Source: Escherichia phage SP15. Taken from it: a DNA stretch of 64,000 nt. The translations under genes and the position numbers were made by a program. Shown here piece by piece: positions 1 to 38,436 of the stretch (position 1 is its first letter; each line of letters opens with the position of its first letter). The DNA is taken from the sequence record AP019559; one strand, written 5' to 3'. The notes beneath the pieces were generated by a model. It worked only from the letters and a program-made list of their open reading frames with translations, was not told the DNA's origin and did not search any database.

Positions 1-123
1 GGTGCAGTGGGTCGGGCGAAAATACTTAGTCTGCTAACCGCCACCCCCGTTACAATTACCATGCTAATTGTTTCACCCTGCAACCATTTTAATTGCAGGG
101 TGAAACAATTTCAACTTTAATTA

Positions 124-858
124 TTACGCAACTTTTAATTTCTCAATATATTGTTGCGGGCTGCAACTATATTCTGCGCGTTCTTCTTCGGTCATACTTT
201 CCCAACATAATTGCAGGCGGTCGGCTAGGAATTGATAATCATTATCATCGTCGAGCGATTCATCAATAAAGGTTTCACCTATCAATGTAACACCGATTGA
301 TAGAATATCGTTAATAGCTTGCGCGTCCAGCGTTTTAAATCCGTATGATGCCGCCGCTGATAGCACGCCTTTATGATCATCAATCATCGTAAAATCAGCG
401 TTCGGATATAACTGTTTAAATAACTCAAAATAATAAGATTTATAAACTGCGTCTTTGCTGTGGTATATTTCGCTAACTTTATCAGCTTCAAAATATTTGT
501 GCAGCGTGTCACGGGAGAACACGCGGATATTGCTGTTCCCACGCCCTCGCAATCCTTGCTTGCGTAGGAAGTAATAATCTGACTTGCTCATTAGTCGAGC
601 GGTGCAAATAATGTTTAAAGTATTTGCGTCATTCATGCACTGGCGCATATATGTAACAAGGGGCAATAAGGAATCTTGCATTATTAAATCATGTTTGCAG
701 GCTTCATTTTTATACTTATTTAAATCTAAATTGCCCTCGCTATCAAAGCAAGGCGCTACACGATGAAACGAATTAATGATAGTGCCGTCTAAATCCCAAA
801 TCATAACGCGGGAAATATGCGGGAAATTACGGGTAATATTCATTTTAACTTGATTCAT
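124..858 (-). CDS. dmp: 5'-deoxyribonucleotidase (HAD-superfamily dNMP phosphatase), T5 Dmp-like
   Basis: 244-aa ORF; N-terminal HAD motif I 'IWDLDGTI' (DxDGT); size and position match T5 pre-early dmp as I recall it. Confidence 0.8.
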   Translation of the reverse strand: MNQVKMNITRNFPHISRVMIWDLDGTIINSFHRVAPCFDSEGNLDLNKYKNEACKHDLIMQDSLLPLVTYMRQCMNDANTLNIICTARLMSKSDYYFLRKQGLRGRGNSNIRVFSRDTLHKYFEADKVSEIYHSKDAVYKSYYFELFKQLYPNADFTMIDDHKGVLSAAASYGFKTLDAQAINDILSIGVTLIGETFIDESLDDDNDYQFLADRLQLCWESMTEEERAEYSCSPQQYIEKLKVA

Positions 859-945
859 TTTGTTACGTTCTCCATTTAAGGGATTAGATTAATTCAATCT
901 AGCCCACTAATTATATTTTGTTAGTGGGCTATGTTTAATTAACTA

Positions 946-1344
946 TTAGAATGCTAGACCGAAAGCGAGAGCGTCGGCAATAAAGCTAACATCTTCACCT
1001 GATACATAGGAACGAATCCCCGCACAAGTATATACTTTTGCGCTGATCAATTGATCATCGAGGCAAGCGGGGCAAGGCGCGACAACTGCAAAGGCTAGGC
1101 CGGATTTTACAGCGTCGATGATAATCGTTTCTTGTTTCACCGTATCAATATAAACGCCTGCGGCCTTAATGTAACTACTTGCGCAGCCTTGCGTATAGGC
1201 AAAGGTAGTAACCTGCAAGGCGTCGTTAAATTCGATTAAATCATCGACAACGTGCCCCGCCTCGACGTGATAACGCTCACCATTAGAATAAACCAGAACA
1301 ATTGAGGATTGAGCGCGATCGAATGGAATATTTTGCTTTTTCAT
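946..1344 (-). CDS. hypothetical protein
   Basis: 132-aa ORF co-oriented in the compact pre-early array; no motif recognised. Confidence 0.5.
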   Translation of the reverse strand: MKKQNIPFDRAQSSIVLVYSNGERYHVEAGHVVDDLIEFNDALQVTTFAYTQGCASSYIKAAGVYIDTVKQETIIIDAVKSGLAFAVVAPCPACLDDQLISAKVYTCAGIRSYVSGEDVSFIADALAFGLAF

Positions 1345-1382
1345 ATTTATATAACTCCAATTAGTTTAATAAGGGGTTTAAT

Positions 1383-1640
1383 TTATTTGATAATAATCTG
1401 CATTTGATACGGCGTTAATTCACCGTTTACGGGTAAATTATTATCGCTTAGCCACTCATAAAAAGCACCATCATCATCAAAAGGGACAATATCGTTATCA
1501 CGGGAATCGACGGAAATAATACCATCCGTATTAGTTTTGGCGGCTAGGATAGGCCCGAAGCTGTAAACTTTATCAGATTCCATTTCATCCGGTGAAATGA
1601 ATACTTTTTCGTCCAATGTTTTGGGTAATGTAACTTTCAT
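1383..1640 (-). CDS. hypothetical protein
   Basis: 85-aa ORF, co-oriented, acidic. Confidence 0.5.
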   Translation of the reverse strand: MKVTLPKTLDEKVFISPDEMESDKVYSFGPILAAKTNTDGIISVDSRDNDIVPFDDDGAFYEWLSDNNLPVNGELTPYQMQIIIK

Positions 1641-1697
1641 TCTAATTTAGCTCCTGTAATAGCGGCTATATTTCAAGCCGCTAGGGTAATAATTTAA

Positions 1698-3362
1698 TTA
1701 TGCAAAGAATTTACCGTTCTTAAAGTCGATCAAAGTACGCTGACCGTTTGCATAGGTAATTAAATGCGTTTGTGTCCAGCTTGACGCGCCAACGTTGTAA
1801 CCCATATCCAGACTACCAGCTACGCCAGCGGTATATACCCCGCCGTAAATGCTGGCGGTATGAGTGTGCCCCGTGTTCAGTTTACCCAATTTCTTAAACT
1901 GTTTCGGATTGCCACGGCTGCCGTTTATGCCATTGTGACCGTGTACGCCGCATTCAATGCCTGCAATTTTAAATGATTGGTCAGTCGTTAGGAAAATGGC
2001 GTTAAACTCGCAACCTGCAACCTTACGCAGCGCATAATCTAGCACGTTGAAAGTATCGTCTTTTTCTGCAATAGCTCCATAAATCGCGGCATTAAGGCGG
2101 TGATATAGTTCCGCGTTTGCTGGGTCGTCTTTAATGTTAGCATTACGATCATCAAGCCAACGGGATAACGCCAGATCATGGTTAGATTCAACAATGATTG
2201 TTTGCGAGAAATCGCGCTCCATTGATTCCAGTACGCGCCCCGTATCGATGAGATCATCCAGAACTTTATCACGTCCGGAGGCATACTGTTTTGCTAGGAA
2301 TACACCCGAAGCGCGGTTGTGATGGTTGCGTGATGTAAAGTCGTGAACGTCATGGATAAACTGATATTTTGGTTTAAGAATATCAAGCAAGCTATTTTCG
2401 CCAGCCCATGACGCAGCGGCGCATTCTTCATCTAATTTTTCAGCGTGGATGTCGCCATATTGTAAACCTAAAACGTGCCCCGTTGTTTCATAGCATCCGG
2501 CAGGAGTAGCGCAAACATTCAGATCATAAAACACGCCGCTTTCGTCCATTGTTTCAAGCTGGCGAACAAAAAATTCCCCGTCCTCATCGAACTCAACAAT
2601 CAGCGCACCGAAATTATGCAGCGCCTCGGCCTTTTGTCCTGCTTTCTGCTGAATGTAATTTTTGAGCGTTGCCGTTCCGGTTGAATACATGCGGCGCACA
2701 ATTTCACCTTTTAAAGCTGGCACGCTTTCGGCGGTGATTTTAGCCGCTCCAATTGCCAGACCTTCCAGATTAAGCGCGGTTGCAGTTTCAGCGAATCCAG
2801 AAAGCGGATAATCTGCGGTTGGCAAAACATTAATTTCAGCCATGAAAGCAAAACGGCGGTTATTTAAAAACACGTTTTTATTGCAGATATATTTATCAAA
2901 AGCGGAATCATATTTGATTCCGTCTGCGCCCTCGCCATTTTGAAAACCGTTTTTGTTATAGATATATTTTGAAACGAGCAAATCAGCGCCGATATATTTA
3001 GCAAATTGCTCCAGTGAGGCTAAAAAGTTTTTATGCGGGAAAGTATTATTCTGAATCGATGTAATAATAAAGCGTTTGCCTTGTTTTACTTCCCAGCTTT
3101 CCACCGTGCTAGAAACAATCCCCGCCGCTTCTGGGCGCTCATCGTTTTTAATGGCTTTTGCTACTTTCGCCGCTTTCGGTTTAGCTGGTTTATTTGCTTC
3201 CAACCAGTCGCAGATAGCGGTCGAGTGTTTTGTTGTATCGTAGACCGCTTTTGATATATCGTCGCAGACCTCCAGTTTAGTAGCGCGCAGACGTTTACCA
3301 TAGAAATTAAAGTCAGCGGCCATTTTCAGGATAACGGTTTGTTTTTCTGCGGAAATAATCAT
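1698..3362 (-). CDS. A1: A1-like pre-early protein, calcineurin-type metallophosphoesterase (predicted nuclease)
   Basis: Track ORF extends to 3452; I place the start at the ATG at 3362 (MIISAEK..., GGAG about 10 nt upstream), giving ~554 aa; motifs 'GDIHAEKLD' and 'GHTHTASIYGG' typical of metallophosphoesterases. Confidence 0.7.
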   Translation of the reverse strand: MIISAEKQTVILKMAADFNFYGKRLRATKLEVCDDISKAVYDTTKHSTAICDWLEANKPAKPKAAKVAKAIKNDERPEAAGIVSSTVESWEVKQGKRFIITSIQNNTFPHKNFLASLEQFAKYIGADLLVSKYIYNKNGFQNGEGADGIKYDSAFDKYICNKNVFLNNRRFAFMAEINVLPTADYPLSGFAETATALNLEGLAIGAAKITAESVPALKGEIVRRMYSTGTATLKNYIQQKAGQKAEALHNFGALIVEFDEDGEFFVRQLETMDESGVFYDLNVCATPAGCYETTGHVLGLQYGDIHAEKLDEECAAASWAGENSLLDILKPKYQFIHDVHDFTSRNHHNRASGVFLAKQYASGRDKVLDDLIDTGRVLESMERDFSQTIIVESNHDLALSRWLDDRNANIKDDPANAELYHRLNAAIYGAIAEKDDTFNVLDYALRKVAGCEFNAIFLTTDQSFKIAGIECGVHGHNGINGSRGNPKQFKKLGKLNTGHTHTASIYGGVYTAGVAGSLDMGYNVGASSWTQTHLITYANGQRTLIDFKNGKFFA

Positions 3363-3451
3363 AGTATAAAACTCCATTAAAGGGACTAGGTTAATAACGG
3401 CAATATTGCCAAATATAACGCCGCAAATGAGTGGCGTTATAATTTGCAACA

Positions 3452-3649
3452 TTAATTTAAAGGTATAAGGCTAGAACTAACACCACAAGCAACGGCGGCA
3501 ATAAAACAAATCAGACCTAAACGCTTTGCCAATTTAGACTTACGTTTAAAATAATATGAATCTAAATCATTTTGAAAATAAGCGAATAGTAACGAGGCCG
3601 CCATAATAAATAAGCCTAGAATGAGGGATTCAGTAGGGTAAAAGATCAT
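3452..3649 (-). CDS. small two-helix membrane protein
   Basis: Track ORF 3452..3697 begins at a GTG inside an 18-bp palindrome; ATG at 3649 with GGAG upstream is the more likely start; two hydrophobic helices. Confidence 0.4.
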   Translation of the reverse strand: MIFYPTESLILGLFIMAASLLFAYFQNDLDSYYFKRKSKLAKRLGLICFIAAVACGVSSSLIPLN

Positions 3650-3679
3650 TTTAATAACTCCAGTCAAAGGGAAATTATA

Positions 3680-3697
3680 GTGGGGAATATTCCCCAC
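3680..3697. repeat. perfect 18-bp palindrome GTGGGGAATATTCCCCAC between the A2-like and A1-like genes
   Basis: Read directly; sequence is its own reverse complement. Confidence 0.8.
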
Positions 3698-3706
3698 TAA
3701 TTAAAT

Positions 3707-4123
3707 TTATTCGCCTGCGGCTTGTTTCACTTCATCGGCAACGCCTAACAGTTGCGCCACGGCGTCCAGCGTTTCCAGTTTTGCGCTTTCCAGTGATGCC
3801 AGATCGTCGGCGTCTTTGATAATGCCGGAATCGATGGCGTGTTTTGCAATTACGCGCACATAATGCGCTTTGCGGATTGAGCTACCGCCGCCAACTTTGC
3901 GCGGCTTATCGCTTTTCTGATACGCTTTCGCGCTGGTCAATTTTGAGCGAACGGACACGGGAGAAGCCGCGCCCACTGCTTTCGCGATCTCTTTCAGGCC
4001 GTCGCTATTTGCGAAATCTAAACCGTTTTCATTAATTAACTGCTGGTACATGGTAACAGCTTTTTGGGTGTTTTCTTCATTCCATGCAAATTTTGCGGAT
4101 TTTTCGGTTTTAACGTTAGCCAT
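3707..4123 (-). CDS. A2: A2-like pre-early DNA-binding protein (tentative)
   Basis: 138-aa basic/acidic protein immediately upstream (in transcription) of the A1-like gene; assignment rests on gene order and size. Confidence 0.5.
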   Translation of the reverse strand: MANVKTEKSAKFAWNEENTQKAVTMYQQLINENGLDFANSDGLKEIAKAVGAASPVSVRSKLTSAKAYQKSDKPRKVGGGSSIRKAHYVRVIAKHAIDSGIIKDADDLASLESAKLETLDAVAQLLGVADEVKQAAGE

Positions 4124-4221
4124 GATTGTAGCTCCTATTAGTTTAATTTAAGGGATAAGATTAACATAATGTTAATCGTTATATACCCCGAACTACTGGG
4201 GTATATAAAGTTAACACTAAA

Positions 4222-4473
4222 TTATAAAACAGCTTCCCATTTTTCGTTACGCTGGACAACCTTTACAACGTCGCCGGATTTAACGCGAACGCTAAAAACG
4301 GTTTTGCCGTTGTTACTACGTTCCGTTTCAGCGTATACCGCGTCGATTGTATCAAATGGCATAAGCGCCGCGCCTTTAATGCGTTCGGCCTTTCCGGTTA
4401 ATTCATCCGTTTTAGTAACGAAAGGAATAAAAACGGATTGACCAATTTTAGGCGTGGTAATAATGTTTTGCAT
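4222..4473 (-). CDS. hypothetical protein
   Basis: 83-aa ORF co-oriented. Confidence 0.5.
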   Translation of the reverse strand: MQNIITTPKIGQSVFIPFVTKTDELTGKAERIKGAALMPFDTIDAVYAETERSNNGKTVFSVRVKSGDVVKVVQRNEKWEAVL

Positions 4474-4671
4474 AGTATAAACTCCAAGTTATTTAGGGGA
4501 TTGTTCCGCATTACCTGCTAGAAAGTAGCAGGTAATAAGCAACAATCCGCTCGCCAATATAATCAATTTAAAGAACTCCACGCAGGCCGCTATATCCCAG
4601 TTAGGGGGCGGGGCACATTATGGTAAGTGCCGACCGTCAAATTTTATCAAATTATCGCTCTTATCGAACTG

Positions 4672-4960
4672 GGTACATCTTAAAGCCTATCGGCTAGGGT
4701 GTCAAACTATTTTTTGCAGTTTTTTATGGTTTTCCTTCAGGTCGATCATAATATTACGCCAGATCATTTCCAGACCTTGCTGGCGGCCTTTCTTGTACTG
4801 CGTGAATCGGTATTTTACCGATCTTTGCGCTACTGTCAACAAATTTTTTGTTTTGCTATCTAGTGCCTTGCTAGGCTTGCCAGTGATCAATAAAGTTTGT
4901 TTCATATCGTCGATTCCTTATAATGTATAAGTTTACCGCCGATAGGCTTTAAGATGTACC
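4672..4960. repeat. 22-bp perfect inverted repeat (4672-4693 / 4939-4960) flanking a 67-aa ORF
   Basis: GGTACATCTTAAAGCCTATCGG and its exact reverse complement, 245 bp apart. Confidence 0.8.
4702..4905 (-). CDS. hypothetical small basic protein
   Basis: 67-aa ORF lying exactly between the 22-bp inverted repeats. Confidence 0.4.
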   Translation of the reverse strand: MKQTLLITGKPSKALDSKTKNLLTVAQRSVKYRFTQYKKGRQQGLEMIWRNIMIDLKENHKKLQKIV

Positions 4961-4966
4961 CAATTT

Positions 4967-5191
4967 TTAAAGAGCGCGGCGGTAACTTCCCGCCGTGTAG
5001 TTCGTCATTGCCGTCCTACGTGATAAATAATAGGGGATTCCCGAAAATGGCGCAACCTTATTTTTGTAAAGAAACGTAAAGACACGATTCACCGCACGCC
5101 GTCCGGCGGCATGGGCGCGGCGCACTAAAATTAAAAGAAACGGGCGCGCGAGTACCACAAAACAGAGCAAATAGGCAAGTAATTTTTTCAT
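4967..5191 (-). CDS. hypothetical protein with hydrophobic N-terminus (doubtful)
   Basis: 74-aa ORF over a locally GC-rich patch; Arg-rich; coding status uncertain. Confidence 0.3.
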   Translation of the reverse strand: MKKLLAYLLCFVVLARPFLLILVRRAHAAGRRAVNRVFTFLYKNKVAPFSGIPYYLSRRTAMTNYTAGSYRRAL

Positions 5192-5362
5192 TTATATTTG
5201 CTTTGCCCTACTTGACAAAACTTAAAAAGCTCGTGGTAGCGATAAACGAGGGTAGGCAATGCAATGGCACGGCTAAAACTTTCATCGCGTTCTAGGGCGT
5301 TTTAGGCGCATTCTAGCCTTGTTGATAACTTATCCCCAAAAGCAAAAATGAAATTTTCCTAG

Positions 5363-5771
5363 TTATCCACTTGACTTTTATTTTCCAGTGGATAACTACT
5401 TATTTTATGAAATAAATTAATTGACTTTTATTTGTTAGTATGCATCGGAAGAATAGCAGACTAATAATTACTAGAATAATAATCATGCTGGTGGATTGTA
5501 ACGGCCTAAACTATCAGCAGACTATTAATCACGAAAAATCTCGTTAGCTAACTAACTATTTCATGATGTATAATATACATATAAATTAATGAGAAATAAT
5601 AATTATAATAAATAATAACTACAGTAAATAATAACTATAAGAAACTATCGGCCTAAGTGAGAACCACTATCATTTAAGTTATCCACAACGTTATCCACAG
5701 CACAAAATAATTTGACACGATAGGCGGCGATATAAGGGCTTATCCACAGACTTATCCACAGGTTATCCTAC
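5363..5771. promoter_or_regulatory. DnaA-box cluster A (six to seven TTATCCAC[A/T] 9-mers) with adjacent AT-rich low-complexity stretch
   Basis: Boxes at 5363-5371, 5387-5395 (opposite strand), 5679-5687, 5691-5699, 5740-5748, 5752-5760, variant 5763-5771; AT-rich tract about 5540-5640. Confidence 0.7.
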
Positions 5772-5786
5772 TGTATAAATATACAG
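5747..5786. repeat. left arm of a 40-bp inverted repeat (39/40 match with 9138-9177)
   Basis: Reverse complement of CAGACTTATCCACAGGTTATCCTACTGTATAAATATACAG recurs at 9138-9177 with one mismatch. Confidence 0.8.
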
Positions 5787-6053
5787 GGTAGAAAGGTAGT
5801 GTTAACAACTGCAATCAATTTTAAGCGGCCTAAAACGCTTTCTAACGAGCTAAATGCGGTGGGGTAATATTAAAGTAAAGCCTTCACCCGTCGCCCTGGT
5901 GGCTTCGCCGTGTTTTGCTCTTTATTGCACCGCTGCGCGGTTAGCATAAAACTAGGCGCTAGGCAAGGAAAATAAAAAGGTAAAATAATATTTGCCTATG
6001 TTAGAAAATTACCTTTATCATTCACTCACCGATTAACGAGGGAGGCCGAACAA

Positions 6054-7046
6054 ATGAGGCTATATAAACCAGATAACGCAACCGTCTTAAAAGGTGCGCT
6101 GCGTAACCTGCTGGACGGTAGCAGAACAACCAGCATCAAACATTTTGTTTTCAATATTGAAACTATTCATCAAAACTTTTTTGGTGATTATGATGCTTAT
6201 AATATGGATAGTTTTCTACCGTTATATAAACAAGGGGCAACGCTTGTTTTATATAATCAGGAATCTCACTTGCTTACTAGTCGAGGGCCAGATACTGATT
6301 TTATTTTAGTAAAAGGCAACACAGTAAAAGCCTATGATGCGGGGGCGGGCTTAGAAGTTTTCACAATAGAAAACTATGAGGCTAATGATAATGATCTTTA
6401 TGATGTAGAAAATTTTCTCGATTCATTTTGGCGTTATTTATCAGTTGGATGGAATCGATCAGATTATGACGGGTATCGTTTTGCGGCTGTAATGGCTTTT
6501 GATGATAACGGTAATTTTTTATTACCATCGGAATTATACCCGTATGTGCATAATGAGCTAGTACAAGAAGCGGGTTTTATTTTCTGGAAAGATGAAGATC
6601 AGATTATTGACAGCGTAGAAAACCATGCTGTAAATTCTAACACTCAAAGCGTTAAAACTCAAACTACTGAAAACAAAGGAAAAAACACCATGACCAAGAT
6701 CGCTAATATTGTTGCCGCTAATAAATCCGCTGTTGTAAACGCTGCAAAACTGGAAGCGGGTAAAATTGCACTGACTCAAATTACGAAAGTAGCGGCTAAA
6801 AAAGCACCGTTTATGATTAAAGGTTATATTGATACACCTATCGGTCGAGTAGTGATTGCCAACCTGCTGAGCGTAGCGGTTGACCAGTACGCCCCAAGTA
6901 ACCAAAAGGCGAAAGCGGTGGCAGGTGCAGCTATGGAAGCGGCTATGTTAGAAATGGTGCAAAGTTTTAACATCGCTGAGATGATTGATGAAATGGTAAA
7001 AGGTATTGATATTTCTACTTTTACCACTAGCACCGAAAGCGAGTAA
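6054..7046 (+). CDS. hypothetical protein
   Basis: 330-aa ORF; RBS GAGGGAGG upstream; first gene of the plus-strand cassette. Confidence 0.55.
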   Translation: MRLYKPDNATVLKGALRNLLDGSRTTSIKHFVFNIETIHQNFFGDYDAYNMDSFLPLYKQGATLVLYNQESHLLTSRGPDTDFILVKGNTVKAYDAGAGLEVFTIENYEANDNDLYDVENFLDSFWRYLSVGWNRSDYDGYRFAAVMAFDDNGNFLLPSELYPYVHNELVQEAGFIFWKDEDQIIDSVENHAVNSNTQSVKTQTTENKGKNTMTKIANIVAANKSAVVNAAKLEAGKIALTQITKVAAKKAPFMIKGYIDTPIGRVVIANLLSVAVDQYAPSNQKAKAVAGAAMEAAMLEMVQSFNIAEMIDEMVKGIDISTFTTSTESE

Positions 7047-7111
7047 TAATATTAAGCGGGGATTGTTACCCCGCTTTACTATTCCCTTGTTAACTAATAG
7101 GAGGCTAATAA

Positions 7112-7606
7112 ATGGCGGATGAAAAATATGGCTTCTCACTGGGAGAAGTGAGCACGGCAAAACATGATATGATCATTTTGGTCGATTGTCATACTGGCTA
7201 TTGCGGGGAAGGGAACACCGAGGAATATTTTGTTCCTACTGGTACGGATCTGGACGCTTTCGCTCAGGAAATGGCTATTGATAATGCCTCTCGTTTTGGT
7301 AGCGATGGTTACGAAGACGAAGAAACTGGCGAATGGTATGATAATGAAAACGTATATGCAAGCCTTTATCATTATCAATTAAGTAAATCCGGCACATATG
7401 TAAACGGCGGCGATCCTATTAATTCCGTCATGAGATTAATTATTAAATATGGCGGCGTCGAGATAATTGACAACAAAGCGGTAATATATGCAAACCGATT
7501 AAAACAGCTTGTTTATATTCCTGATAGTACCCGATGGGATGAATATGCTGTTTTGCATGACGAATTGAAACGATGTTTCAATATTGAATCCTTACAAGTA
7601 GTCTAA
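7112..7606 (+). CDS. hypothetical protein
   Basis: 164-aa ORF; RBS AGGAGG 7 nt upstream. Confidence 0.55.
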   Translation: MADEKYGFSLGEVSTAKHDMIILVDCHTGYCGEGNTEEYFVPTGTDLDAFAQEMAIDNASRFGSDGYEDEETGEWYDNENVYASLYHYQLSKSGTYVNGGDPINSVMRLIIKYGGVEIIDNKAVIYANRLKQLVYIPDSTRWDEYAVLHDELKRCFNIESLQVV

Positions 7607-7619
7607 TGTAAAGTTTTGT

Positions 7620-7651
7620 AAAGGTCGCCTTTTATGGTGGCCTTTTTTGTT
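7620..7651 (+). terminator. Rho-independent terminator candidate
   Basis: 10-bp stem (two G-U pairs) AAAGGTCGCC/GGTGGCCTTT, loop TTTTAT, then T-run. Confidence 0.5.
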
Positions 7652-7711
7652 ATAATGCCTTTACACCGTTTGAGGACGGTTGAAAATTTTCCCAAAAATT
7701 GGAGGCTTAAA

Positions 7712-7942
7712 ATGGTTGCTTACTCTTCTGCTAGTCATCTGTTCACCGCTCAAGGCTGGGTATCTAACCGCGTTATTATTCACGAAATGGTGCAAGAATA
7801 TGGCATTGCTAAAACTTACACTACCATTCAGGCGCTTTATGATAATGATCAAATCGATCAGCAAACGGCTGGCTTTTTGCTGGATACCCTGAAAGCAGAA
7901 CATTGCACCAAAAAACAAGCGGCTAAAATTGTTTTAATGTAA
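7712..7942 (+). CDS. hypothetical protein
   Basis: Track ORF 7634..7942 trimmed to the ATG at 7712, which has a GGAGG RBS and lies downstream of the terminator hairpin. Confidence 0.5.
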   Translation: MVAYSSASHLFTAQGWVSNRVIIHEMVQEYGIAKTYTTIQALYDNDQIDQQTAGFLLDTLKAEHCTKKQAAKIVLM

Positions 7943-7988
7943 TTAATAACGGGGGATATTATATCCCCCGCTAACTAGGAGGATGAAA

Positions 7989-8138
7989 ATGGTTATTTTT
8001 CGAGCTATTCTGGCGGGTATCTTGGGCGCTATTTTATCTTTATTTGCAATAGCTTTCGACGTTCACGCGGTTATTATCGGCGCGGGTATCGCTGTATTTT
8101 CTTATCTGCTGGGCTGCATGACTAGTAAAGGAGAATAA
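7989..8138 (+). CDS. small hydrophobic membrane protein (49 aa, below ORF-track cutoff)
   Basis: ATG with AGGAGG RBS; single long hydrophobic segment; stop 2 nt before the next ATG. Confidence 0.4.
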   Translation: MVIFRAILAGILGAILSLFAIAFDVHAVIIGAGIAVFSYLLGCMTSKGE

Positions 8139-8140
8139 AA

Positions 8141-8353
8141 ATGATCCGCAACGTTTCCCTTGCACGTTCGAAAGGCTTTAAGCTGGTGGACGTTAACACG
8201 TTCGAGCGTGAAGATTGTAAAATCGAATATGTAGCACGTAATAAGAATGCCTTTCGTGTTACCGAGAAAAAATTCGATAAGCGCGGCAACGTGATCGCTG
8301 AAACGGTTAAACACTTTGCCACCTTTTACGCTGCGTTTCGGGGAGTGTTATAA
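8141..8353 (+). CDS. hypothetical protein
   Basis: 70-aa ORF; RBS AAAGGAGA. Confidence 0.5.
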   Translation: MIRNVSLARSKGFKLVDVNTFEREDCKIEYVARNKNAFRVTEKKFDKRGNVIAETVKHFATFYAAFRGVL

Positions 8354-8354
8354 A

Positions 8355-8699
8355 ATGGTAATTTATGAAGGTAATCGTTTTGTTGCTAATTGCCGTCCGG
8401 CATTATTAGCAAACTATTTAAACCAGCTTTCACCAGCTTATAAGGGCGTTATTAATATTTATGAGGGCACGGCGCATTATAAAATCAATGCGGTCGTTGC
8501 CCGTGAACTAGCGTTTCAATTTTTGACCTTTGCATCTTGTGACGTTCAGGTTATGGGTGAAGCGTTAATTGCAGAAAATGAAGATGATTTTATTAATATT
8601 TTCCGCAAGATATGCACCGAGCGCCTGATAATGAAAGGCGCGTATATTCAATCCACTGCGGATAGTATTGAAACAGCGTTTCGAAAGGTGGCGCAATGA
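8355..8699 (+). CDS. hypothetical protein
   Basis: Track ORF 8316..8699 trimmed to the ATG at 8355 (MVIYEGN...) with GGGAG upstream. Confidence 0.5.
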   Translation: MVIYEGNRFVANCRPALLANYLNQLSPAYKGVINIYEGTAHYKINAVVARELAFQFLTFASCDVQVMGEALIAENEDDFINIFRKICTERLIMKGAYIQSTADSIETAFRKVAQ

Positions 8700-8799
8700 G
8701 ATTATATATTTTCGCGGGTAATGTTGAGGCTGCAAATGATTCCGCTGGTGGCGATAACGTTCGTCACTACTGGCAAAAATATATTTACTAGGGGTTATT

Positions 8800-8994
8800 A
8801 TGAGCAATAAAATTATTGTGACCAAAACTACCACAACGGTTGACGTTTTTTATGTGCCTGATACGCCGGAAAACCGGCAAGCGGTCGAGCGGGGCGAATA
8901 TGATAGCGTTATTTATGATCACGATGGTTACTACCAACATTTGGTGGATTCCTACGGGGAGGAGGAAAAAATCACGCATCAATTACCGGACTGA
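8800..8994 (+). CDS. hypothetical acidic protein
   Basis: 64-aa ORF, last gene of the plus-strand cassette. Confidence 0.5.
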   Translation: MSNKIIVTKTTTTVDVFYVPDTPENRQAVERGEYDSVIYDHDGYYQHLVDSYGEEEKITHQLPD

Positions 8995-9001
8995 CAACAA
9001 G

Positions 9002-9023
9002 CGGGGATCTGCTCCCCGTTTTT
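9002..9023 (+). terminator. Rho-independent terminator
   Basis: CGGGGA-tctgc-TCCCCG stem-loop followed by TTTTT directly after the stop at 8994. Confidence 0.7.
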
Positions 9024-9137
9024 CACGCCTCCAGTTAAATACCTCTTTGTTTTAGTATCCCCACCAAAATTAAACGCGTCAGAATGCGATCTAGGACGTT
9101 TTAGCGGTATATTAGAATTATTCACTACATAGGAATA

Positions 9138-9245
9138 CTGTATATTTATACAGTAGGATAAGCTGTGGATAAGTCTGTTAATAACGCTTCAAAATGGCTA
9201 GGATTCTGTCAAGTCAAATCGTGCTGTTAATAAGTCTGTGGATAA
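9138..9245. promoter_or_regulatory. DnaA-box cluster B (three boxes, opposite orientation to cluster A) including the right arm of the 40-bp inverted repeat (9138-9177)
   Basis: Reverse-complement TTATCCACA boxes at 9164-9172 and 9237-9245, variant at 9153-9161. Confidence 0.7.
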
Positions 9246-9255
9246 CTTAAATAAC

Positions 9256-9440
9256 AGTGTTTCTCACTTCCATTCTTAAATGAGAATCATTATCATTCGC
9301 ATTCCACTGTCTAACCGATAATCATTTCACTTTTTGAATAGTTCTCATTTCACTTCTTAAATGAGAATCATTATCATTCGCATTCCACTTCTTAAATGAT
9401 AATGATTCTCATTCAAAGTCGCAGGGCAATTGCCCTGCGC
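9256..9440. repeat. nested direct and inverted repeats ending in the perfect 18-bp palindrome GCAGGGCAATTGCCCTGC (9421-9438)
   Basis: 34-bp unit CTTAAATGAGAATCATTATCATTCGCATTCCACT at 9275-9308 and 9356-9389; inverted copy AATGATAATGATTCTCATT at 9395-9413. Confidence 0.75.
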
Positions 9441-9444
9441 TTTT

Positions 9445-10045
9445 GTGCAAATCCGACATTTGCCCCCATGGATTACGCGTGGGCATGTATGTGCAAATCC
9501 GACAATTTTTGGTAGTGTGCAAATCCGACCCGAAAAATTTTTATAGTGTGCAAATCCGACAATGAATTTTCCCAAAAACTCCAGCAATCACGAACTGCGT
9601 TCGAATCCTGTGGAATTAGCTAGAATATGTGCAAATCCGACATGTGTTGAGGTGTGCGAATCCGACAAGATTTTTATGACTTCGATGAGAAGGTGTGTGA
9701 TTGTATAGGTTTGAGGAAAAGATGAGAGAGCGAGAGAAATTTTGGGGCTAGAAGGATGTGGGCGCAGGATTGGTGCGGAGCACCTGATTTGCAGGTATTT
9801 TGGGGGAGAGTTGAGATAATTTGGGAAGATTTGAGATAGGTGCAGAAAAAGTAAAATTTTATTAGCTAAATGGGGCAAAATAGCTTGACAAGTGAAAATT
9901 CTTGTGGCTCTAAAAACTCAGGCAATCACGGGCCTTCGGCCCGAAATAATGCTGCTATTTTCAGGAGAGTAAGAGTTCCTAAAAACTTAGGCGTTTGTGC
10001 AAATCCGACCATAAATTTCTAGAAACACAATGTGCAAATCCGACA
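9445..10045. repeat. array of eight GTGCAAATCCGAC(A/C) 14-mers, irregularly spaced
   Basis: Copies at 9445, 9491, 9527, 9548, 9629, 9654 (one mismatch), 10007, 10032; a ninth copy inside a CDS at 11823. Confidence 0.8.
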
Positions 10046-10201
10046 GTAAAATCCAGAAATGTGTTTTCAAAAAATGTCTCCTAGAAATAACCGCCCTCCC
10101 TATAACCGCCCTATATTAACCGCCTATTGCTAGAGTTTCTAGGAACAATGAAAACCGCCTGAGTTGACTAGAGTTTTCCTAGAAACTTAGGAGTCTAGAA
10201 G
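10017..10201. repeat. TCTAGAAA-type palindromic motifs and four AACCGCC(C)T direct repeats
   Basis: TTTCTAGAAAC at 10017, CCTAGAAAT at 10081, AGTTTCTAGG at 10133, TTCCTAGAAAC at 10185; AACCGCC at about 10089, 10104, 10119, 10152. Confidence 0.6.
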
Positions 10202-10510
10202 AAAGTGTTGTGCCATCCTAGTAGATGAGCGGCAACAGGTGTATCATCTTGAACACAGATATTGCCTTTAAAAATATTTAAATAATATAAAGAAAAAGAG
10301 ACCCCCAATTTCATGAGAATCTCTCCTGGGGGCGCGTGATTAATTACGTGAGTACTCATGCCGTCATACCGCTGTTGCTAGGCCGCAAGCTATACGAGAC
10401 ATTCGTGTAATAATCATCGCCCCTAGAGTTAATCAACTAGAGTAGTTGTTAATCTATGAGATTATTATAACATGTTTGGGTATGAGAATGCAAGAACTTT
10501 TTGTTAACTT

Positions 10511-11224
10511 TTATTCCTCCTTCTTGGATTTGAGTTTGATGCCTAAGGATGCGAAGTAGATATAAGTTGCTAAATAGGAAGCAGTGGATCCTGTATCATC
10601 GTAATCCATAGTTCCACGAGCTGCTCTAGTATATTCAGGAGCATAGTTTAATATCGTGTAACTTGGCATTCCTAGCGACTTACATAGTTCTTTAAATGTA
10701 TCTTCGTATTTATGGCACATGAAATGCACAGCATTTTCTAATGGCGTTAACTCTAGATCTTTATGGAGAGCTACAGTCAAACTCGCTAGCATTGTGCCAA
10801 TCCCACGATAAACTTCATCTTTAACTAGAGTTGGTTTCTCTTTTTCTAGTGGAGGAAGGTGGGCATATTTCCCATGTTTGAAAGGGATAAGATCTTCGCT
10901 AGCTAATGCTTCTTTAAATGATGCTTCCTTAAATCTTGGGAGATCTTCATCGATTAGGATATGAATAGCATTAGAGGAGAAACCTTTTGCTTCAGGATCT
11001 AAAGCTTTCAACGCTTTATTCACTTCTACATATGAGCCTGACCAAACTACTTGTTTTGCATCTCGATCATACTTGATCTTACCTTTATCCCACCTAGCAG
11101 GATAATGATCTCCTAAAAACATTACTGCATATTTTTCTTCCTCAGTTAGCTGGGAAAGACTCTTTTGTGTAGCACCACGCGCTAACTGAATGAGACGTTT
11201 TAATTTTTCAGCTTCTTTAATCAT
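10511..11224 (-). CDS. hypothetical protein, possible GNAT-type acetyltransferase
   Basis: 237-aa ORF; 'VYRGIGTML' resembles a GNAT acetyl-CoA binding motif; weak. Confidence 0.45.
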   Translation of the reverse strand: MIKEAEKLKRLIQLARGATQKSLSQLTEEEKYAVMFLGDHYPARWDKGKIKYDRDAKQVVWSGSYVEVNKALKALDPEAKGFSSNAIHILIDEDLPRFKEASFKEALASEDLIPFKHGKYAHLPPLEKEKPTLVKDEVYRGIGTMLASLTVALHKDLELTPLENAVHFMCHKYEDTFKELCKSLGMPSYTILNYAPEYTRAARGTMDYDDTGSTASYLATYIYFASLGIKLKSKKEE

Positions 11225-11568
11225 ATATCAGACGCTTGCTCCCCTGTTTCTTTCTTTTCTGTCTTAGGTTTTCTTGCAACTTCTCCAAAGGTTCCTTTGG
11301 TTCTTTCTTTAGCTGGAAGATCTACTTTATACCATAGGATTCCTAATTGTTGCGCTAAATGGGCTATATTCTTTGGTGTTATACTTGGAACATCTTCCCT
11401 ATCAGAAACTTTAGAAATTATATCAAGTAACTCTCCTATTTTTGGCTTACTAGTAGTTATTAGAATATATTCTAATGTTTCTATTTCTACATTTTCATCT
11501 TTATAGTAAAGACTAAGAGTAATTAAATCGTCACCAGCAGAAGTTATTTTTGTTTTACCAAATATCAT
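11221..11568 (-). CDS. hypothetical protein
   Basis: 115-aa ORF, 4-nt overlap with the downstream gene. Confidence 0.5.
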   Translation of the reverse strand: MIFGKTKITSAGDDLITLSLYYKDENVEIETLEYILITTSKPKIGELLDIISKVSDREDVPSITPKNIAHLAQQLGILWYKVDLPAKERTKGTFGEVARKPKTEKKETGEQASDI

Positions 11569-12173
11569 TAACTACCTCTCTTATCTTCATTAAGAGCAGC
11601 TCCCAACGCTTCAAGGATAGTATCATTTATACTCCCAGGCCTAAGATTATTAAAGTGAGTAACATAGATGGGACTTCTAAAACCCTCAGCATCCGCAGGT
11701 GCTACGCTTCGCATATCAGATTCAAAAGCTTCTTGAGTATGTTGCAACTGTACAGAAGGGCCGTAATCTTCACCAACTCGATATGAGGAATTATTTTCTA
11801 TAACGCCACCACATGGAACATTGTGCAAATCCGACGTTATTTTAGGATTAAATGCGATACCACTTTTGGTCCAGGAACCTCCAACAGTCACAGGAGTACT
11901 AGGGCGGTTCACCTCAGTCTTTACGAGTTTATAACCAGCATCTATTAATGCGTTAATAAGGTTATCAGCTGGAATCCGAGCCTTGCCAAAGATCTTACGA
12001 GCTTCTTTTAATTTATGCTCAAGATCTTTACAGGCTTTAATATCAGTGTGCGCAAAGGTTAATTTCATAGATTTGAACTGTACAGTGGCAGTTAAGTCTT
12101 TAAAATCATAATCCCATGTATTTAATTCATGGTCTGGTACTACTTGAACAGGTTGTTGTGCATATAAAGTCAT
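11568..12173 (-). CDS. hypothetical protein
   Basis: 201-aa ORF; contains one copy of the 14-mer repeat at 11823-11836. Confidence 0.55.
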   Translation of the reverse strand: MTLYAQQPVQVVPDHELNTWDYDFKDLTATVQFKSMKLTFAHTDIKACKDLEHKLKEARKIFGKARIPADNLINALIDAGYKLVKTEVNRPSTPVTVGGSWTKSGIAFNPKITSDLHNVPCGGVIENNSSYRVGEDYGPSVQLQHTQEAFESDMRSVAPADAEGFRSPIYVTHFNNLRPGSINDTILEALGAALNEDKRGS

Positions 12174-20231: not shown

Positions 20232-20308
20232 GGCTTTCTCCTATCTTCAAAAATTATTAAAGCCCCCTTTGCCTAAAAAGGCGGGAATATTCCCGCCTAA
20301 GTTATTAA

Positions 20309-22143: not shown

Positions 22144-22896
22144 TTATCCAACTAGTGGTTCTAGCTCTAAGTCACAGAAGTTATAAACTTCTAGTTTAAG
22201 GTTATTGATACCATCGAATTTATTAACTAATTCGTGAGTAATATATTTTGCAGGAATACCACTTTCAGATGGATGATCTGATTTAATAGTGAACTTCTGC
22301 TCAGCGGGTACTACATTTACTATCAAAGAATCCATATCTAAATGGTTTGTTTCTCTGAGTAACTCTCCTTCATTGGGGAATCTAACATCTGTTATTACGG
22401 CGACATCTGGGTCGTCTTTAGCGATGGATTGCTCCAGAATTATGAGCCAAATGCGTTCATGTACCAGCTGCCTTCCTAGCTCTGTTCCTACGAGCTGTAA
22501 CATTTTTCTCGGAGAAATAAATAAACTATAAAGTCCGTCTTCTTTATTCTCTGAGATAAGTTGTTGAGGATTAAGATATTTTTCCTCAAAAATCGGCCAA
22601 ACGTACGAGAAGTCTTCAAACTTATTGATACCGTATTTAAACCATACGTCTCTAGCTCGCTCCAATTGAGATTGTGTGACCGTAAACCATTGGTCAATCT
22701 CTTTCCCCCTGCGCTCTCCTAGAAACTCTGGAGTTACACCGAGGATTACGGATGCAAGTTCATAAACGGGCTTAGCAAAACTATAACGACGGGGTAAACA
22801 CGTTGGATACGTGTCATTACACCAATCGATAATTAATTTTGCAACGGTATCTTTTCCCGAACCAGCTTCACCATGTAAACCGACTAATACTGACAT
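22144..22896 (-). CDS. dnk: deoxynucleoside monophosphate kinase
   Basis: P-loop 'GEAGSGKDT' near the N-terminus; 250 aa. Confidence 0.7.
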   Translation of the reverse strand: MSVLVGLHGEAGSGKDTVAKLIIDWCNDTYPTCLPRRYSFAKPVYELASVILGVTPEFLGERRGKEIDQWFTVTQSQLERARDVWFKYGINKFEDFSYVWPIFEEKYLNPQQLISENKEDGLYSLFISPRKMLQLVGTELGRQLVHERIWLIILEQSIAKDDPDVAVITDVRFPNEGELLRETNHLDMDSLIVNVVPAEQKFTIKSDHPSESGIPAKYITHELVNKFDGINNLKLEVYNFCDLELEPLVG

Positions 22897-38394: not shown

Positions 38395-38436
38395 GATAAA
38401 AGAAAAGCCCTGCGCTCTCCAGGGAACGCAGGGCTT
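38395..38436 (-). terminator. Rho-independent terminator for the SPFH gene
   Basis: 10-bp stem AAGCCCTGCG/CGCAGGGCTT; on the minus strand followed by TTTTCTTTT. Confidence 0.65.

What the first reader, a model, noticed from the sequence alone, without database searches (positions are those of the whole stretch)
3680..9438. Two perfect 18-bp palindromes with AT-rich centres
GTGGGGAATATTCCCCAC (3680-3697, between the A2-like and A1-like genes) and GCAGGGCAATTGCCCTGC (9421-9438, in the repeat tract) share a G/C-rich arm around an AT core. They look like operator sites for a dimeric DNA-binding protein or attenuator hairpins; the small basic A2-like protein is a candidate binder.
Basis: inference. 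Interest (0 to 1): 0.45.

Follow-up and report, generated by a model that had tools for sequence, protein, structure and literature searches.

The report
Known T5 hairpins PalB and PalJ
The two palindromes are real, but they are the already catalogued "palindrome B" and "palindrome J" of a T5-like phage, and they behave like RNA stem-loops (a hairpin between two genes, and a terminator built on the phage's first major nick site) rather than protein operator sites.

Summary
The window is the left end of a T5-like phage (Tequintavirus). Both palindromes exist at the stated coordinates and are longer than reported: 22 bp at 3678-3699 and 20 bp at 9420-9439. There are four perfect palindromes of at least 18 bp against 0.42 expected.

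They align to features annotated in T5 record AY587007. "Palindrome B" lies after gene A2. "Palindrome J" lies in the injection-stop repeat region and overlaps "major single-stranded nick 1, 7.9%".

The A2-operator idea fails. The half-sites match at only 5 of 9 positions. In relatives whose A2 is 94-98% identical, the first palindrome is replaced by unrelated hairpins. The centre of the second varies from 4 to 13 nt.

The hairpin idea holds:
- Every relative examined has a GC-rich stem-loop just after the A2 stop. It shows compensatory changes, and its G·U pairs favour the mRNA strand.
- PalJ shows three independent double substitutions and no one-sided breaks in its 7-bp core. TTTT follows it on the + strand.

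Best reading: PalB is an intercistronic RNA hairpin or weak attenuator in the leftward pre-early operon. PalJ is a backstop intrinsic terminator whose right arm doubles as the nick recognition sequence. No function has been tested experimentally. The features are already known and of low interest.

The parts
3678..3699 (-). PalB: 22-bp perfect palindrome TAGTGGGGAATATTCCCCACTA. On the A2 mRNA strand it forms a 9-bp stem with a 4-nt loop, starting 8 nt after the A2 stop codon.
   Evidence: centroid -15.2 kcal/mol. It aligns to 'palindrome B' of T5 AY587007.
3707..4123 (-). A2 gene (138 aa, pI 8.75), upstream of PalB in the leftward pre-early operon.
   Evidence: annotated A2 / DNA binding protein in relatives.
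3452..3649 (-). 65-aa hydrophobic ORF ('membrane protein' or 'A1 precursor' in relatives). It is the first gene downstream of PalB. Its Shine-Dalgarno GGAG lies about 18 nt after the hairpin.
1698..3452 (-). A1 gene (584 aa). It has no strong promoter of its own, so it must be transcribed by read-through of PalB.
   Evidence: strong promoter-like sites only at 4839-4812 and 4705-4677 on the - strand; experimentally mapped promoters are listed in 10.64898/2026.04.02.716235.
9420..9439 (+). PalJ: 20-bp perfect palindrome CGCAGGGCAATTGCCCTGCG, an 8-bp GC-rich stem with a 4-nt loop.
   Evidence: z = -4.6. It aligns to 'palindrome J' of T5 AY587007. Covariation is shown.
9433..9440 (-). CCCTGCGC, which reads A/GCGCAGGG on the minus strand: the T5 major-nick consensus R/GCGCRGG. 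It is homologous to nick 1 (7.9%). It forms the right arm of PalJ plus one more base (9440).
   Evidence: the consensus is quoted in PMC3517423.
9441..9444 (+). TTTT run one base after the PalJ stem, mirrored by AAAG upstream (9415-9418). This is a terminator tail on the + strand.
   Evidence: (top-ranked terminator-like site).
9445..9458 (+). First of 8 clustered copies of the direct repeat GTGCRAATCCGACA (T5 'direct repeat D'), starting 5 nt after PalJ.
9000..9018 (+). PalC-like primary terminator directly after the last rightward pre-early ORF. PalJ lies about 420 nt downstream of it.
   Evidence: T5 annotates the homologue as a terminator; d = +3.4.
20279..20298 (-). Third palindrome of the same shape (AGGCGGGAATATTCCCGCCT), followed by TTTTT on the coding strand, between the lysozyme gene and the next gene. 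It is an ordinary intrinsic terminator.
   Evidence: T5 homologue annotated as a terminator; d = +9.8.
38405..38436 (-). Hairpin at the nick-3 homologue, built from the same 8-mer arms as PalJ in the opposite order (GCCCTGCG...CGCAGGGC) and followed by TTCTTTTAT on the minus strand.
   Evidence: d = +19.1.

Best explanation
Both palindromes are stem-loops that act in transcripts, and they belong to a general set of GC-stem, AT-loop hairpins that punctuate the intergenic junctions of this T5-like phage.

PalB (3678-3699) folds in the leftward pre-early mRNA just after the A2 stop codon. Because A1 and dmp have no promoter of their own, PalB cannot be a full stop. It most likely acts as a leaky terminator (attenuator) and/or as a 3' barrier that stabilises the upstream A2 segment of the message. 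Either would set the A2:A1 expression ratio.

PalJ (9420-9439) is a hairpin followed by TTTT on the + strand. It most likely acts as a second, backstop intrinsic terminator about 420 nt after the primary terminator of the rightward pre-early operon. It would keep RNA polymerase out of the direct-repeat-D tract, the end of the first-step-transfer DNA and, later, the antisense strand of the early genes. Its right arm is also the recognition sequence of the first major nick (R/GCGCRGG on the minus strand). The left arm has evolved to complement an older, more widely conserved nick-site plus repeat-D core.

What is shown: the homology to T5 PalB and PalJ, the positional conservation, the covariation, the strand bias of G·U pairs for PalB, the nick motif and the T-run. 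What is inferred: termination or stabilisation activity, and which strand of PalJ matters.
For: Identity:
- The window is 90-96% identical to T5-like phages.
- The palindromes align base for base with 'palindrome B' and 'palindrome J' of AY587007.

PalB:
- Every relative examined has a GC-rich hairpin within about 15 nt of the A2 stop, but in unrelated sequence forms. These are the T5 type, a TTGCCC...GGGCAA type, a Klebsiella-phage type, Eos and two Vibrio-phage types.
- L037-L039 carry a U-A to C-G double change, and loop bases vary freely.
- In the TTGCCC type and in Vibrio 70E34, G·U pairs make the sense strand 1.1-4.6 kcal/mol more stable than the antisense strand.
- The tail scores as a terminator in L024 (d = +9.0) and Eos (+6.9) but not in the window (-20.7). 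The hairpin is therefore the constant element and the U-tract the variable one.
- 8 of 9 perfect hairpins with stems of at least 8 bp in the first 12 kb are intergenic (P = 2.5e-4).

PalJ:
- Three independent double substitutions occur at three stem positions (L035 G-C to A-U, L089 G-C to U-A, L021 A-U to G-C).
- The 7-bp core has no one-sided change; 0 of 500 shuffles reach the observed covariation.
- The loop is 4, 5 or 12-13 nt.
- It is the top-ranked terminator-like site in the scan of the first 12 kb.
- d = -2.2 in the window and +31 in the BF23-type 22-bp form; fold z = -4.6.
- The nick motif CCCTGCGC occurs exactly three times in the window, all on the + strand, at the homologues of T5 nicks 1-3.
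Against: - There are no transcript-end data for either site. ARNold did not call either one a terminator in BF23, and T5 annotators labelled them only 'palindrome'.
- PalB's U-tail in the window is poor on both strands (d about -21 to -29).
- PalJ lies about 420 nt beyond an annotated terminator, in a region with no known transcript.
- All PalJ variants keep Watson-Crick pairs, so the acting strand, and even RNA versus DNA, is not resolved.
- Klebsiella-type phages and Eos lack the PalJ hairpin while keeping the nick-like motif and repeat D, so the hairpin is not essential to that region.
- Symmetrical changes in a perfect palindrome can also arise from templated quasi-palindrome correction during replication (established mutational mechanism, own knowledge). 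That would mimic selection for pairing.
Confidence: 0.6

Rival explanations
1. PalJ is primarily a DNA-level element of the nicking system or the injection-stop system. The palindrome would present or position the R/GCGCRGG site for the phage nickase. Alternatively, the nicked strand's 5' end (pGCGCAGGGCAATTGCCCTGC...) folds back. Either structure would contribute to the pause of DNA transfer at 7.9%.
For: PalJ's right arm plus GC is the nick consensus, at the homologue of T5 nick 1. The site lies inside the annotated injection stop signal and about 40 bp from the calculated shear point (Davison 10.1101/866236). The nick-3 homologue is also embedded in a hairpin with the same 8-mer arms. Two of the three compensatory changes keep the 7-nt nick consensus.
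Against: The nick-2 homologue has the motif but no hairpin involving it. L035 changes the consensus (GCGCAGA) and still restores the stem, so pairing is kept even at the expense of the motif. Klebsiella-type phages and Eos keep the motif and repeat D without the hairpin. The hairpin at nick 3 is fully explained as the terminator of the adjacent minus-strand gene. Interruption-deficient T5 mutants are viable (Rogers et al. 1979, cited in PMC3517423). That they still transfer DNA in two steps is my recollection and was not checked.
Confidence: 0.15
2. One or both palindromes are operators for a dimeric DNA-binding protein: phage A2, or a host protein.
For: Perfect dyad symmetry is present. A2 is annotated as a DNA-binding protein in many relatives and is mildly basic (pI 8.75). 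Symmetrical double changes are also what a co-evolving dimer site would show.
Against: The half-sites match at 5 of 9 positions. PalJ arm spacing varies by 1 to 9 nt. PalB is replaced by unrelated sequences while A2 stays 94-98% identical with no segregating residue. G·U pairs in replacement hairpins only make sense in RNA. The third site of the same shape is a plain terminator in the early region. There is no overlap with a good promoter.
Confidence: 0.07
3. The palindromes have no function of their own. They persist because palindromes self-correct by intrastrand templating. PalJ's left arm would then be an accidental inverted copy of the selected nick motif.
For: The core conserved beyond the genus is only CCTGCGCTTWTGTGCRAAWCCGACA, without the left arm. 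All stem changes are perfectly symmetrical.
Against: Hairpins of unrelated sequence recur at the same place after A2 across subfamilies of Demerecviridae. Imperfect stems with G·U pairs and loops of different sizes are retained, which templated correction would not produce. Perfect hairpins are strongly concentrated in intergenic junctions.
Confidence: 0.1

Closest known systems
'Palindrome B' and 'palindrome J' of bacteriophage T5 (GenBank AY587007, Wang et al. 2005; reviewed by Davison, bioRxiv 10.1101/866236)
   Same: Orthologous position and sequence. PalB is identical over 22 bp. PalJ is identical to the AY543070 version over 18 bp. The flanking genes and repeats are the same.
   Different: None of substance. 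In the window PalJ's left flank carries a 13-nt deletion relative to T5, and its stem is one pair longer than in T5 (CGCAGGGC against GCAGGGC). The function of both elements is unassigned in the literature read here.
T5 major single-strand interruption sites (consensus 5'-R/GCGCRGG-3', quoted in PMC3517423; nick 1 at 7.9%)
   Same: The window has A/GCGCAGGG on the minus strand at 9441-9433, at the homologue of nick 1. It has two further copies at the homologues of nicks 2 and 3.
   Different: Whether this phage's virion DNA is nicked was not and cannot be tested here. The palindrome is not a general property of nick sites, since nick 2 lacks one.
Rho-independent (intrinsic) terminators and leaky intra-operon attenuators of E. 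coli and its phages
   Same: A GC-rich stem of 8-9 bp and a 4-nt loop. PalJ has a T-run on the + strand with a mirrored A-run upstream. PalB lies between cistrons of one operon.
   Different: PalB has no proper U-tract in this phage. PalJ has only four U's and lies about 420 nt after another terminator rather than directly after a gene.
Intercistronic mRNA-stabilising hairpins (for example REP elements in malE-malF) and the RNase III sites between T7 early genes
   Same: Stem-loops at nearly every intergenic junction of the pre-early operons. Position is conserved while sequence turns over.
   Different: The stems of 8-11 bp are too short for classic RNase III substrates. There is no shared repeat sequence as in REP elements. 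No processing data exist.
Palindromic operators of dimeric phage repressors (lambda, 434, P22 type)
   Same: Dyad symmetry of about 18-22 bp.
   Different: There is no shared half-site, the spacing is variable, there is no promoter overlap, and there is no co-variation with the proposed binder.

Membership tests
T5 PalB / PalJ (annotated palindromes of the T5 left terminal repeat) | Alignable sequence at the orthologous position (after A2; between direct repeats C/E and direct repeat D) | tested here: met
   base-for-base alignment with the annotated features and the same neighbours.
Intrinsic terminator | GC-rich stem of at least 5 bp with a loop of 3-8 nt | tested here: met
   PalB has a 9-bp stem, -14.4 kcal/mol. 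PalJ has an 8-bp stem, -15.9 kcal/mol.
Intrinsic terminator | U-rich tract immediately 3' of the stem on the transcribed strand | tested here: inconclusive
   PalJ + strand has CUUUUGUG (d = -2.2, borderline; +31 in BF23-type relatives). PalB sense strand has UAAUUUCCC (d = -20.7, not met in the window; +9.0 in L024, +6.9 in Eos).
Intrinsic terminator | Transcript 3' ends at the site | not testable with these tools
   No transcript-end data were found in the papers read.
Conserved RNA stem-loop | Base pairs maintained by compensatory substitutions across relatives | tested here: met
   In PalJ, 3 of 8 pairs show double changes, the 7-bp core has no one-sided breaks, and 0 of 500 shuffles reach the score. 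PalB shows one double change plus replacement by other hairpins.
Conserved RNA stem-loop | G·U pairs that fit one strand only | tested here: met
   Met for the PalB position: the sense strand is favoured in type 2 and Vibrio 70E34 hairpins. No such variant was found for PalJ, so that site remains unresolved.
Operator of a dimeric DNA-binding protein (A2) | Shared half-site consensus among the sites | tested here: not met
   5 of 9 positions are identical between the two half-sites.
Operator of a dimeric DNA-binding protein (A2) | Fixed half-site spacing across relatives | tested here: not met
   PalJ centres of 4, 5 and 12-13 nt.
Operator of a dimeric DNA-binding protein (A2) | Site sequence conserved, or co-varying, with the binding protein | tested here: not met
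   A2 is 94-98% identical in carriers of unrelated hairpins, and no A2 column segregates with hairpin type.
Operator of a dimeric DNA-binding protein (A2) | Physical binding | not testable with these tools
   Requires EMSA or footprinting.
T5 major nick site | R/GCGCRGG on the nicked (minus) strand at a position homologous to a mapped T5 nick | tested here: met
   A/GCGCAGGG on the minus strand at 9441-9433, aligned to T5 nick 1.
T5 major nick site | An actual interruption in virion DNA | not testable with these tools
   Needs virion DNA analysis.
Injection stop signal (iss) | Lies in the non-coding repeat region at about 8% of the genome | tested here: met
   PalJ aligns inside the annotated iss of AY543070. 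It is flanked by DnaA boxes and direct repeat D.
Injection stop signal (iss) | Cis-acting requirement for the pause in DNA transfer | not testable with these tools
   No element of the region has been genetically dissected (Davison 10.1101/866236).

The most novel reading that the evidence does not exclude
The PalJ hairpin is selected at the DNA level, together with the adjacent major nick. The nicked strand begins exactly at the base of the stem, so its 5' end could fold back into a hairpin. That structure, or a cruciform, would be part of the physical signal that halts DNA transfer at 7.9% or that marks the strand for nicking. A broader version is that the T5 nickase prefers its motif when presented in terminator-type hairpins, as at 2 of the 3 sites in this window.
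Probability: 0.07. Interest if true: 0.75.

Novelty: already known. Interest (0 to 1): 0.2.

Why it matters
The mechanism that stops T5 DNA transfer at 8% has been open for more than 50 years, and the repeat region holding PalJ is the only candidate locus. Showing that PalJ is under selection for pairing, and that its right arm is the nick-1 recognition sequence, gives a concrete and cheap mutational target: left-arm scramble against compensatory restoration. As things stand, however, both palindromes are catalogued T5 features. The most economical reading makes them ordinary transcript hairpins. The useful outcome here is removing the A2-operator idea, not a discovery.

Tried and rejected
- **Promoter at PalB.** TATAAT follows the stem on the minus strand, but no -35 element exists at 16-18 nt. 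The TATAAT is also not conserved: TATTTT in L024 and L030, TAAACT in L038. Rejected.
- **Rfam.** A search of window 1-12000 at E <= 1 gave only chance-level hits and nothing at either palindrome.
- **Pfam.** No family was found for A2, A1 or the small ORF, so no DNA-binding fold could be assigned to A2 that way. No structure prediction was run, because it would not test sequence-specific binding.
- **A Fur-regulated small RNA.** I considered a transcript from the promoter-like site 9349-9377 ending at PalJ. The distance between the repeat units and PalJ is not conserved; the window has a 13-nt deletion relative to T5. Left as a note only.
- **Strand of PalJ.** I looked for G·U variants in 33 distinct sequence contexts from viral and metagenome contigs. 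None was found.
- **Papers not available.** Davison 2015 (PMC4743489) and Rogers 1979 (PMC353203) are not held.
- **BF23 annotation.** It does not call either site a terminator.

Full report
**What the window is.** Megablast of 3300-4300 and 9000-9800 against phage genomes finds hundreds of T5-like phages (Tequintavirus and relatives) at 87-96% identity. These include T5 itself, BF23, NBEco002 and vB_EcoD-Elw. The window therefore starts at the left terminal repeat of a T5-like genome. From left to right:
- The pre-early genes dmp, A1, a small membrane ORF and A2 lie on the minus strand.
- A divergent promoter region follows, then a rightward pre-early operon (6054-8994).
- Next comes the long non-coding "injection stop signal" region.
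- Last come the early genes, on the minus strand.

**The observation.**
- As perfect palindromes they are longer: TAGTGGGGAATATTCCCCACTA at 3678-3699 and CGCAGGGCAATTGCCCTGCG at 9420-9439.
- The window contains four perfect palindromes of at least 18 bp against 0.42 expected from Markov shuffles. The Poisson P is about 9e-4.
- The shape GGG-MA-WW-TK-CCC occurs three times against 0.05 expected.
- The third instance, AGGCGGGAATATTCCCGCCT at 20279-20298, was not in the finding.
- The half-sites of the two reported palindromes agree at only 5 of 9 positions. They share a shape, not a motif.

**They are already annotated in T5.** In AY587007 the 22-bp element after A2 is "palindrome B", and the alignment with the window is identical. 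The element at 9420-9439 is "palindrome J". It sits between direct repeats C and the nine copies of direct repeat D, and it is overlapped by "major single-stranded nick 1, 7.9%". AY543070 places the same spot inside "injection stop signal (iss)" and marks the interruption on the minus strand. Davison's preprint lists PalJ among the palindromes of Repeat Region 3 and says their functions cannot be guessed (10.1101/866236). The third palindrome is the homologue of a T5 "putative rho-independent terminator" between the lysozyme gene and ORF035.

**PalB: anatomy and comparison.** PalB begins 8 nt after the A2 stop codon on the minus strand. The Shine-Dalgarno sequence of the 65-aa ORF follows about 18 nt later. 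I fetched 40 A2-centred loci from viral contigs and three distant annotated genomes.
- Every one has a GC-rich stem-loop within about 15 nt of the A2 stop, but in unrelated sequence forms:
  - the T5 form;
  - a form TTGCCC(C/T)...GGGCAA nested in an outer AT stem, seen in 11 loci;
  - ATGCGCCTC...GGGGCGCAT in Klebsiella-type phages (A2 64% identical);
  - GCCGCC...GGCGGC followed by TTTATT in phage Eos;
  - TTAGGGGGAATTATCCCCCTAA in Vibrio phage Javier;
  - GGCATTC...GAGTGCC followed by TTTTAT in Vibrio phage 70E34.
- Within the T5 form, L037-L039 carry a T-A to C-G double change. The central bases vary (AATATT, AGTATT, AATAAT, ATTATT), which breaks the perfect palindrome but not the stem.
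- In the TTGCCC form and in 70E34, one pair is G·U on the A2 mRNA strand and therefore A·C on the other strand. The sense strand is 1.1-4.6 kcal/mol more stable. This points to an RNA hairpin in the sense transcript.
- The A2 proteins of phages with the T5 form and with the TTGCCC form are all 94-98% identical to the window's A2. No alignment column segregates with hairpin type. A2 therefore cannot depend on the PalB sequence.

**PalB: likely role.** The only strong promoter-like sites for the leftward operon are at 4839-4812 and 4705-4677, matching T5's annotated pre-early promoters. A recent preprint lists only promoters near gene hdi and upstream of gene 011 as experimentally mapped, and treats dmp, A1 and A2 as one likely operon (10.64898/2026.04.02.716235). 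A1 is essential and lies downstream of PalB, so PalB cannot be an efficient terminator.
- A d'Aubenton-Carafa-type score, with ViennaRNA energies and therefore approximate, is -20.7 for PalB on the sense strand in the window.
- The same score is +9.0 in L024, whose tail is TTTTCCCC, and +6.9 in Eos.
- So the hairpin is constant and the U-tract variable.
- PalB is not special in the operon. Of nine perfect hairpins with stems of at least 8 bp and at least 4 GC pairs in the first 12 kb, eight lie in intergenic junctions: 66-111, 1660-1684, 3678-3700, 4179-4209, 4510-4537, 7054-7077, 7950-7971 and 9420-9440 (coordinates as printed by the script). The binomial P is 2.5e-4.

I conclude that PalB is one of a set of intercistronic RNA hairpins. 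It most likely acts as a leaky terminator and/or a 3'-exonuclease barrier that tunes the relative expression of A2 and A1. The activity itself is inferred.

**PalJ: anatomy and comparison.** On the + strand the 8-bp stem (-15.9 kcal/mol) is followed by C and TTTT and preceded by AAAG. It was the top-ranked terminator-like site in the 12-kb scan.
- Its right arm together with the next base reads CCCTGCGC, which is A/GCGCAGGG on the minus strand. This is the T5 major-nick consensus R/GCGCRGG quoted in PMC3517423.
- CCCTGCGC occurs exactly three times in the window, all on the + strand, at 9433, 22707 and 38408. These are the homologues of T5 nicks 1, 2 and 3.
- I collected 33 distinct sequence contexts from viral and metagenome contigs. 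The stem shows three independent double substitutions at three positions:
  - GCAGAGC/GCTCTGC in L035;
  - GCAGGTC/GACCTGC in L089 and L102;
  - GCGGGGGC/GCCCCCCGC in L021.
- On a 17-row alignment, 3 of 8 pairs have changes on both sides and none has a one-sided change in the 7-bp core. None of 500 shuffles reaches the covariation score, and slid controls are far lower.
- The centre is AATT in most, AAATT in L091, and 12-13 nt (for example ATTTTCATTTTT) in L015 and L037-L039. That excludes a fixed-spacing dimer site.
- Two of the three double changes keep the 7-nt nick consensus. L035 breaks it and still restores the stem.
- In BF23-type phages the palindrome is 22 bp (GCGCAGGGCAATTGCCCTGCGC) and is directly followed by TTTT. 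It scores d = +31, against -2.2 in the window.
- Klebsiella-type phages and Eos lack the left arm altogether but keep CCTGCGCTTATGTGCRAAWCCGACA, that is, the nick-like motif plus the first direct repeat D.

The older, more widely conserved unit is therefore nick motif plus repeat D. The hairpin was built onto it within the Tequintavirus/Epseptimavirus group.

**PalJ: likely role.** The rightward pre-early operon ends at 8994 and has its own terminator at 9000-9018. Its T5 homologue is annotated as a terminator, and it scores d = +3.4. PalJ lies about 420 nt further on, after the DnaA boxes (9164-9172, 9237-9245) and the repeat-C/E units, and 5 nt before the eight clustered copies of GTGCRAATCCGACA.
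- The best-supported reading is a backstop intrinsic terminator for rightward transcription.
- It would keep polymerase out of the repeat-D tract and the end of the first-step-transfer DNA. Later it would keep polymerase off the antisense strand of the early genes.
- This is inferred. No G·U variant resolves the strand, and no transcript data exist.
- The nick-3 homologue at 38408 supports the idea that the GC-rich nick motif is simply good stem material. There the same 8-mers (GCCCTGCG ... CGCAGGGC) form a hairpin followed by TTCTTTTAT on the minus strand, directly after the stop of a minus-strand gene. It scores d = +19.1.
- The nick-2 homologue lies inside a coding region, with no hairpin involving the motif.

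**Rivals.**
- A DNA-level role for PalJ in nicking or in the injection stop cannot be excluded and is the most interesting possibility left. It is weakened by the hairpin-less nick 2, by L035, and by the hairpin-less relatives.
- The A2-operator proposal fails every testable criterion. Binding itself is untested.
- Self-maintenance of palindromes by templated correction could mimic compensatory evolution. It does not explain the recurrent unrelated hairpins after A2, the G·U pairs or the variable loops.

**Verdict.** The novelty is low. The comparative evidence for selection on pairing and the dual coding of PalJ's right arm are modest additions.

Noticed in passing
window 9276-9300, 9357-9381, 9392-9416 (also 228-252): The repeat-C/E units just left of PalJ each contain overlapping forward and reverse matches of 14-15/19 to the E. 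coli Fur box GATAATGATAATCATTATC. There are six hits in 140 bp, against about 4.5 per 64 kb in shuffles. One unit also overlaps a promoter-like site, TTCACT-17-TATCAT at 9349-9377. Davison's preprint on this region discusses DnaA boxes but does not mention Fur. The T5 receptor FhuA is Fur-regulated (own knowledge).
   Followed up: partly
L009, L011-L014, L024, L026, L086 (BF23) and others; homologue of window 9418-9440: In many relatives PalJ is a 22-bp perfect palindrome, GCGCAGGGCAATTGCCCTGCGC, preceded by A. The nick consensus R/GCGCRGG then occurs on both strands, 14 nt apart. Either these phages are nicked on both strands there, or strand choice needs determinants beyond the 7-nt motif.
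   Followed up: no
window 9433-9440, 22707-22714, 38408-38415: CCCTGCGC occurs exactly three times in 64 kb, always on the + strand, at the homologues of T5 major nicks 1-3. The sites at nicks 2 and 3 share 13 nt, CCCTGCGCTCTCC.
   Followed up: partly
window 38405-38436: The nick-3 homologue sits in a hairpin made of the same 8-mer arms as PalJ in the reverse order. The hairpin is followed by a T-run on the minus strand, directly after the stop of the minus-strand gene 38460-39407. So two of the three nick motifs are arms of terminator-type hairpins.
   Followed up: partly
window 66-111, 1660-1684, 4179-4209, 4510-4537, 7054-7077, 7950-7971: Nearly every intergenic junction of both pre-early operons carries a perfect hairpin with a stem of 8-18 bp. 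Eight of the nine such hairpins in the first 12 kb are intergenic.
   Followed up: partly
L006, L009, L010, L013, L015, L017-L019, L021-L023, L036; homologue of window 3655-3706: In about 40% of close relatives the 22-bp PalB is replaced by a roughly 60-nt cassette holding a different, nested hairpin. The flanking A2 and small ORF stay nearly identical, so this is a clean swap of an intergenic module.
   Followed up: yes
window 5679-5760 and 9164-9245: There are six perfect DnaA boxes (TTATCCACA): four on the + strand at 5679-5760 and two on the - strand at 9164-9172 and 9237-9245. This matches the inverted-repeat arrangement Davison describes for T5.
   Followed up: no
window 9445-10045 and 11823-11836: Eight clustered copies of GTGCRAATCCGACA lie on the + strand starting 5 nt after PalJ, with a ninth at 11823 (expected 0.04). 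This iteron-like array is a better candidate than the palindromes for a sequence-specific binding protein. The motif is conserved as far as Eos and the Klebsiella-type phages.
   Followed up: no
L001 (AY587007) 1055-1071 against L002 (AY543070): The two T5 reference sequences differ by one G inside PalJ (GCAGGCAATTG against GCAGGGCAATTG). In AY587007 the palindrome is therefore imperfect and annotated as 17 nt. This is probably a sequencing difference.
   Followed up: no
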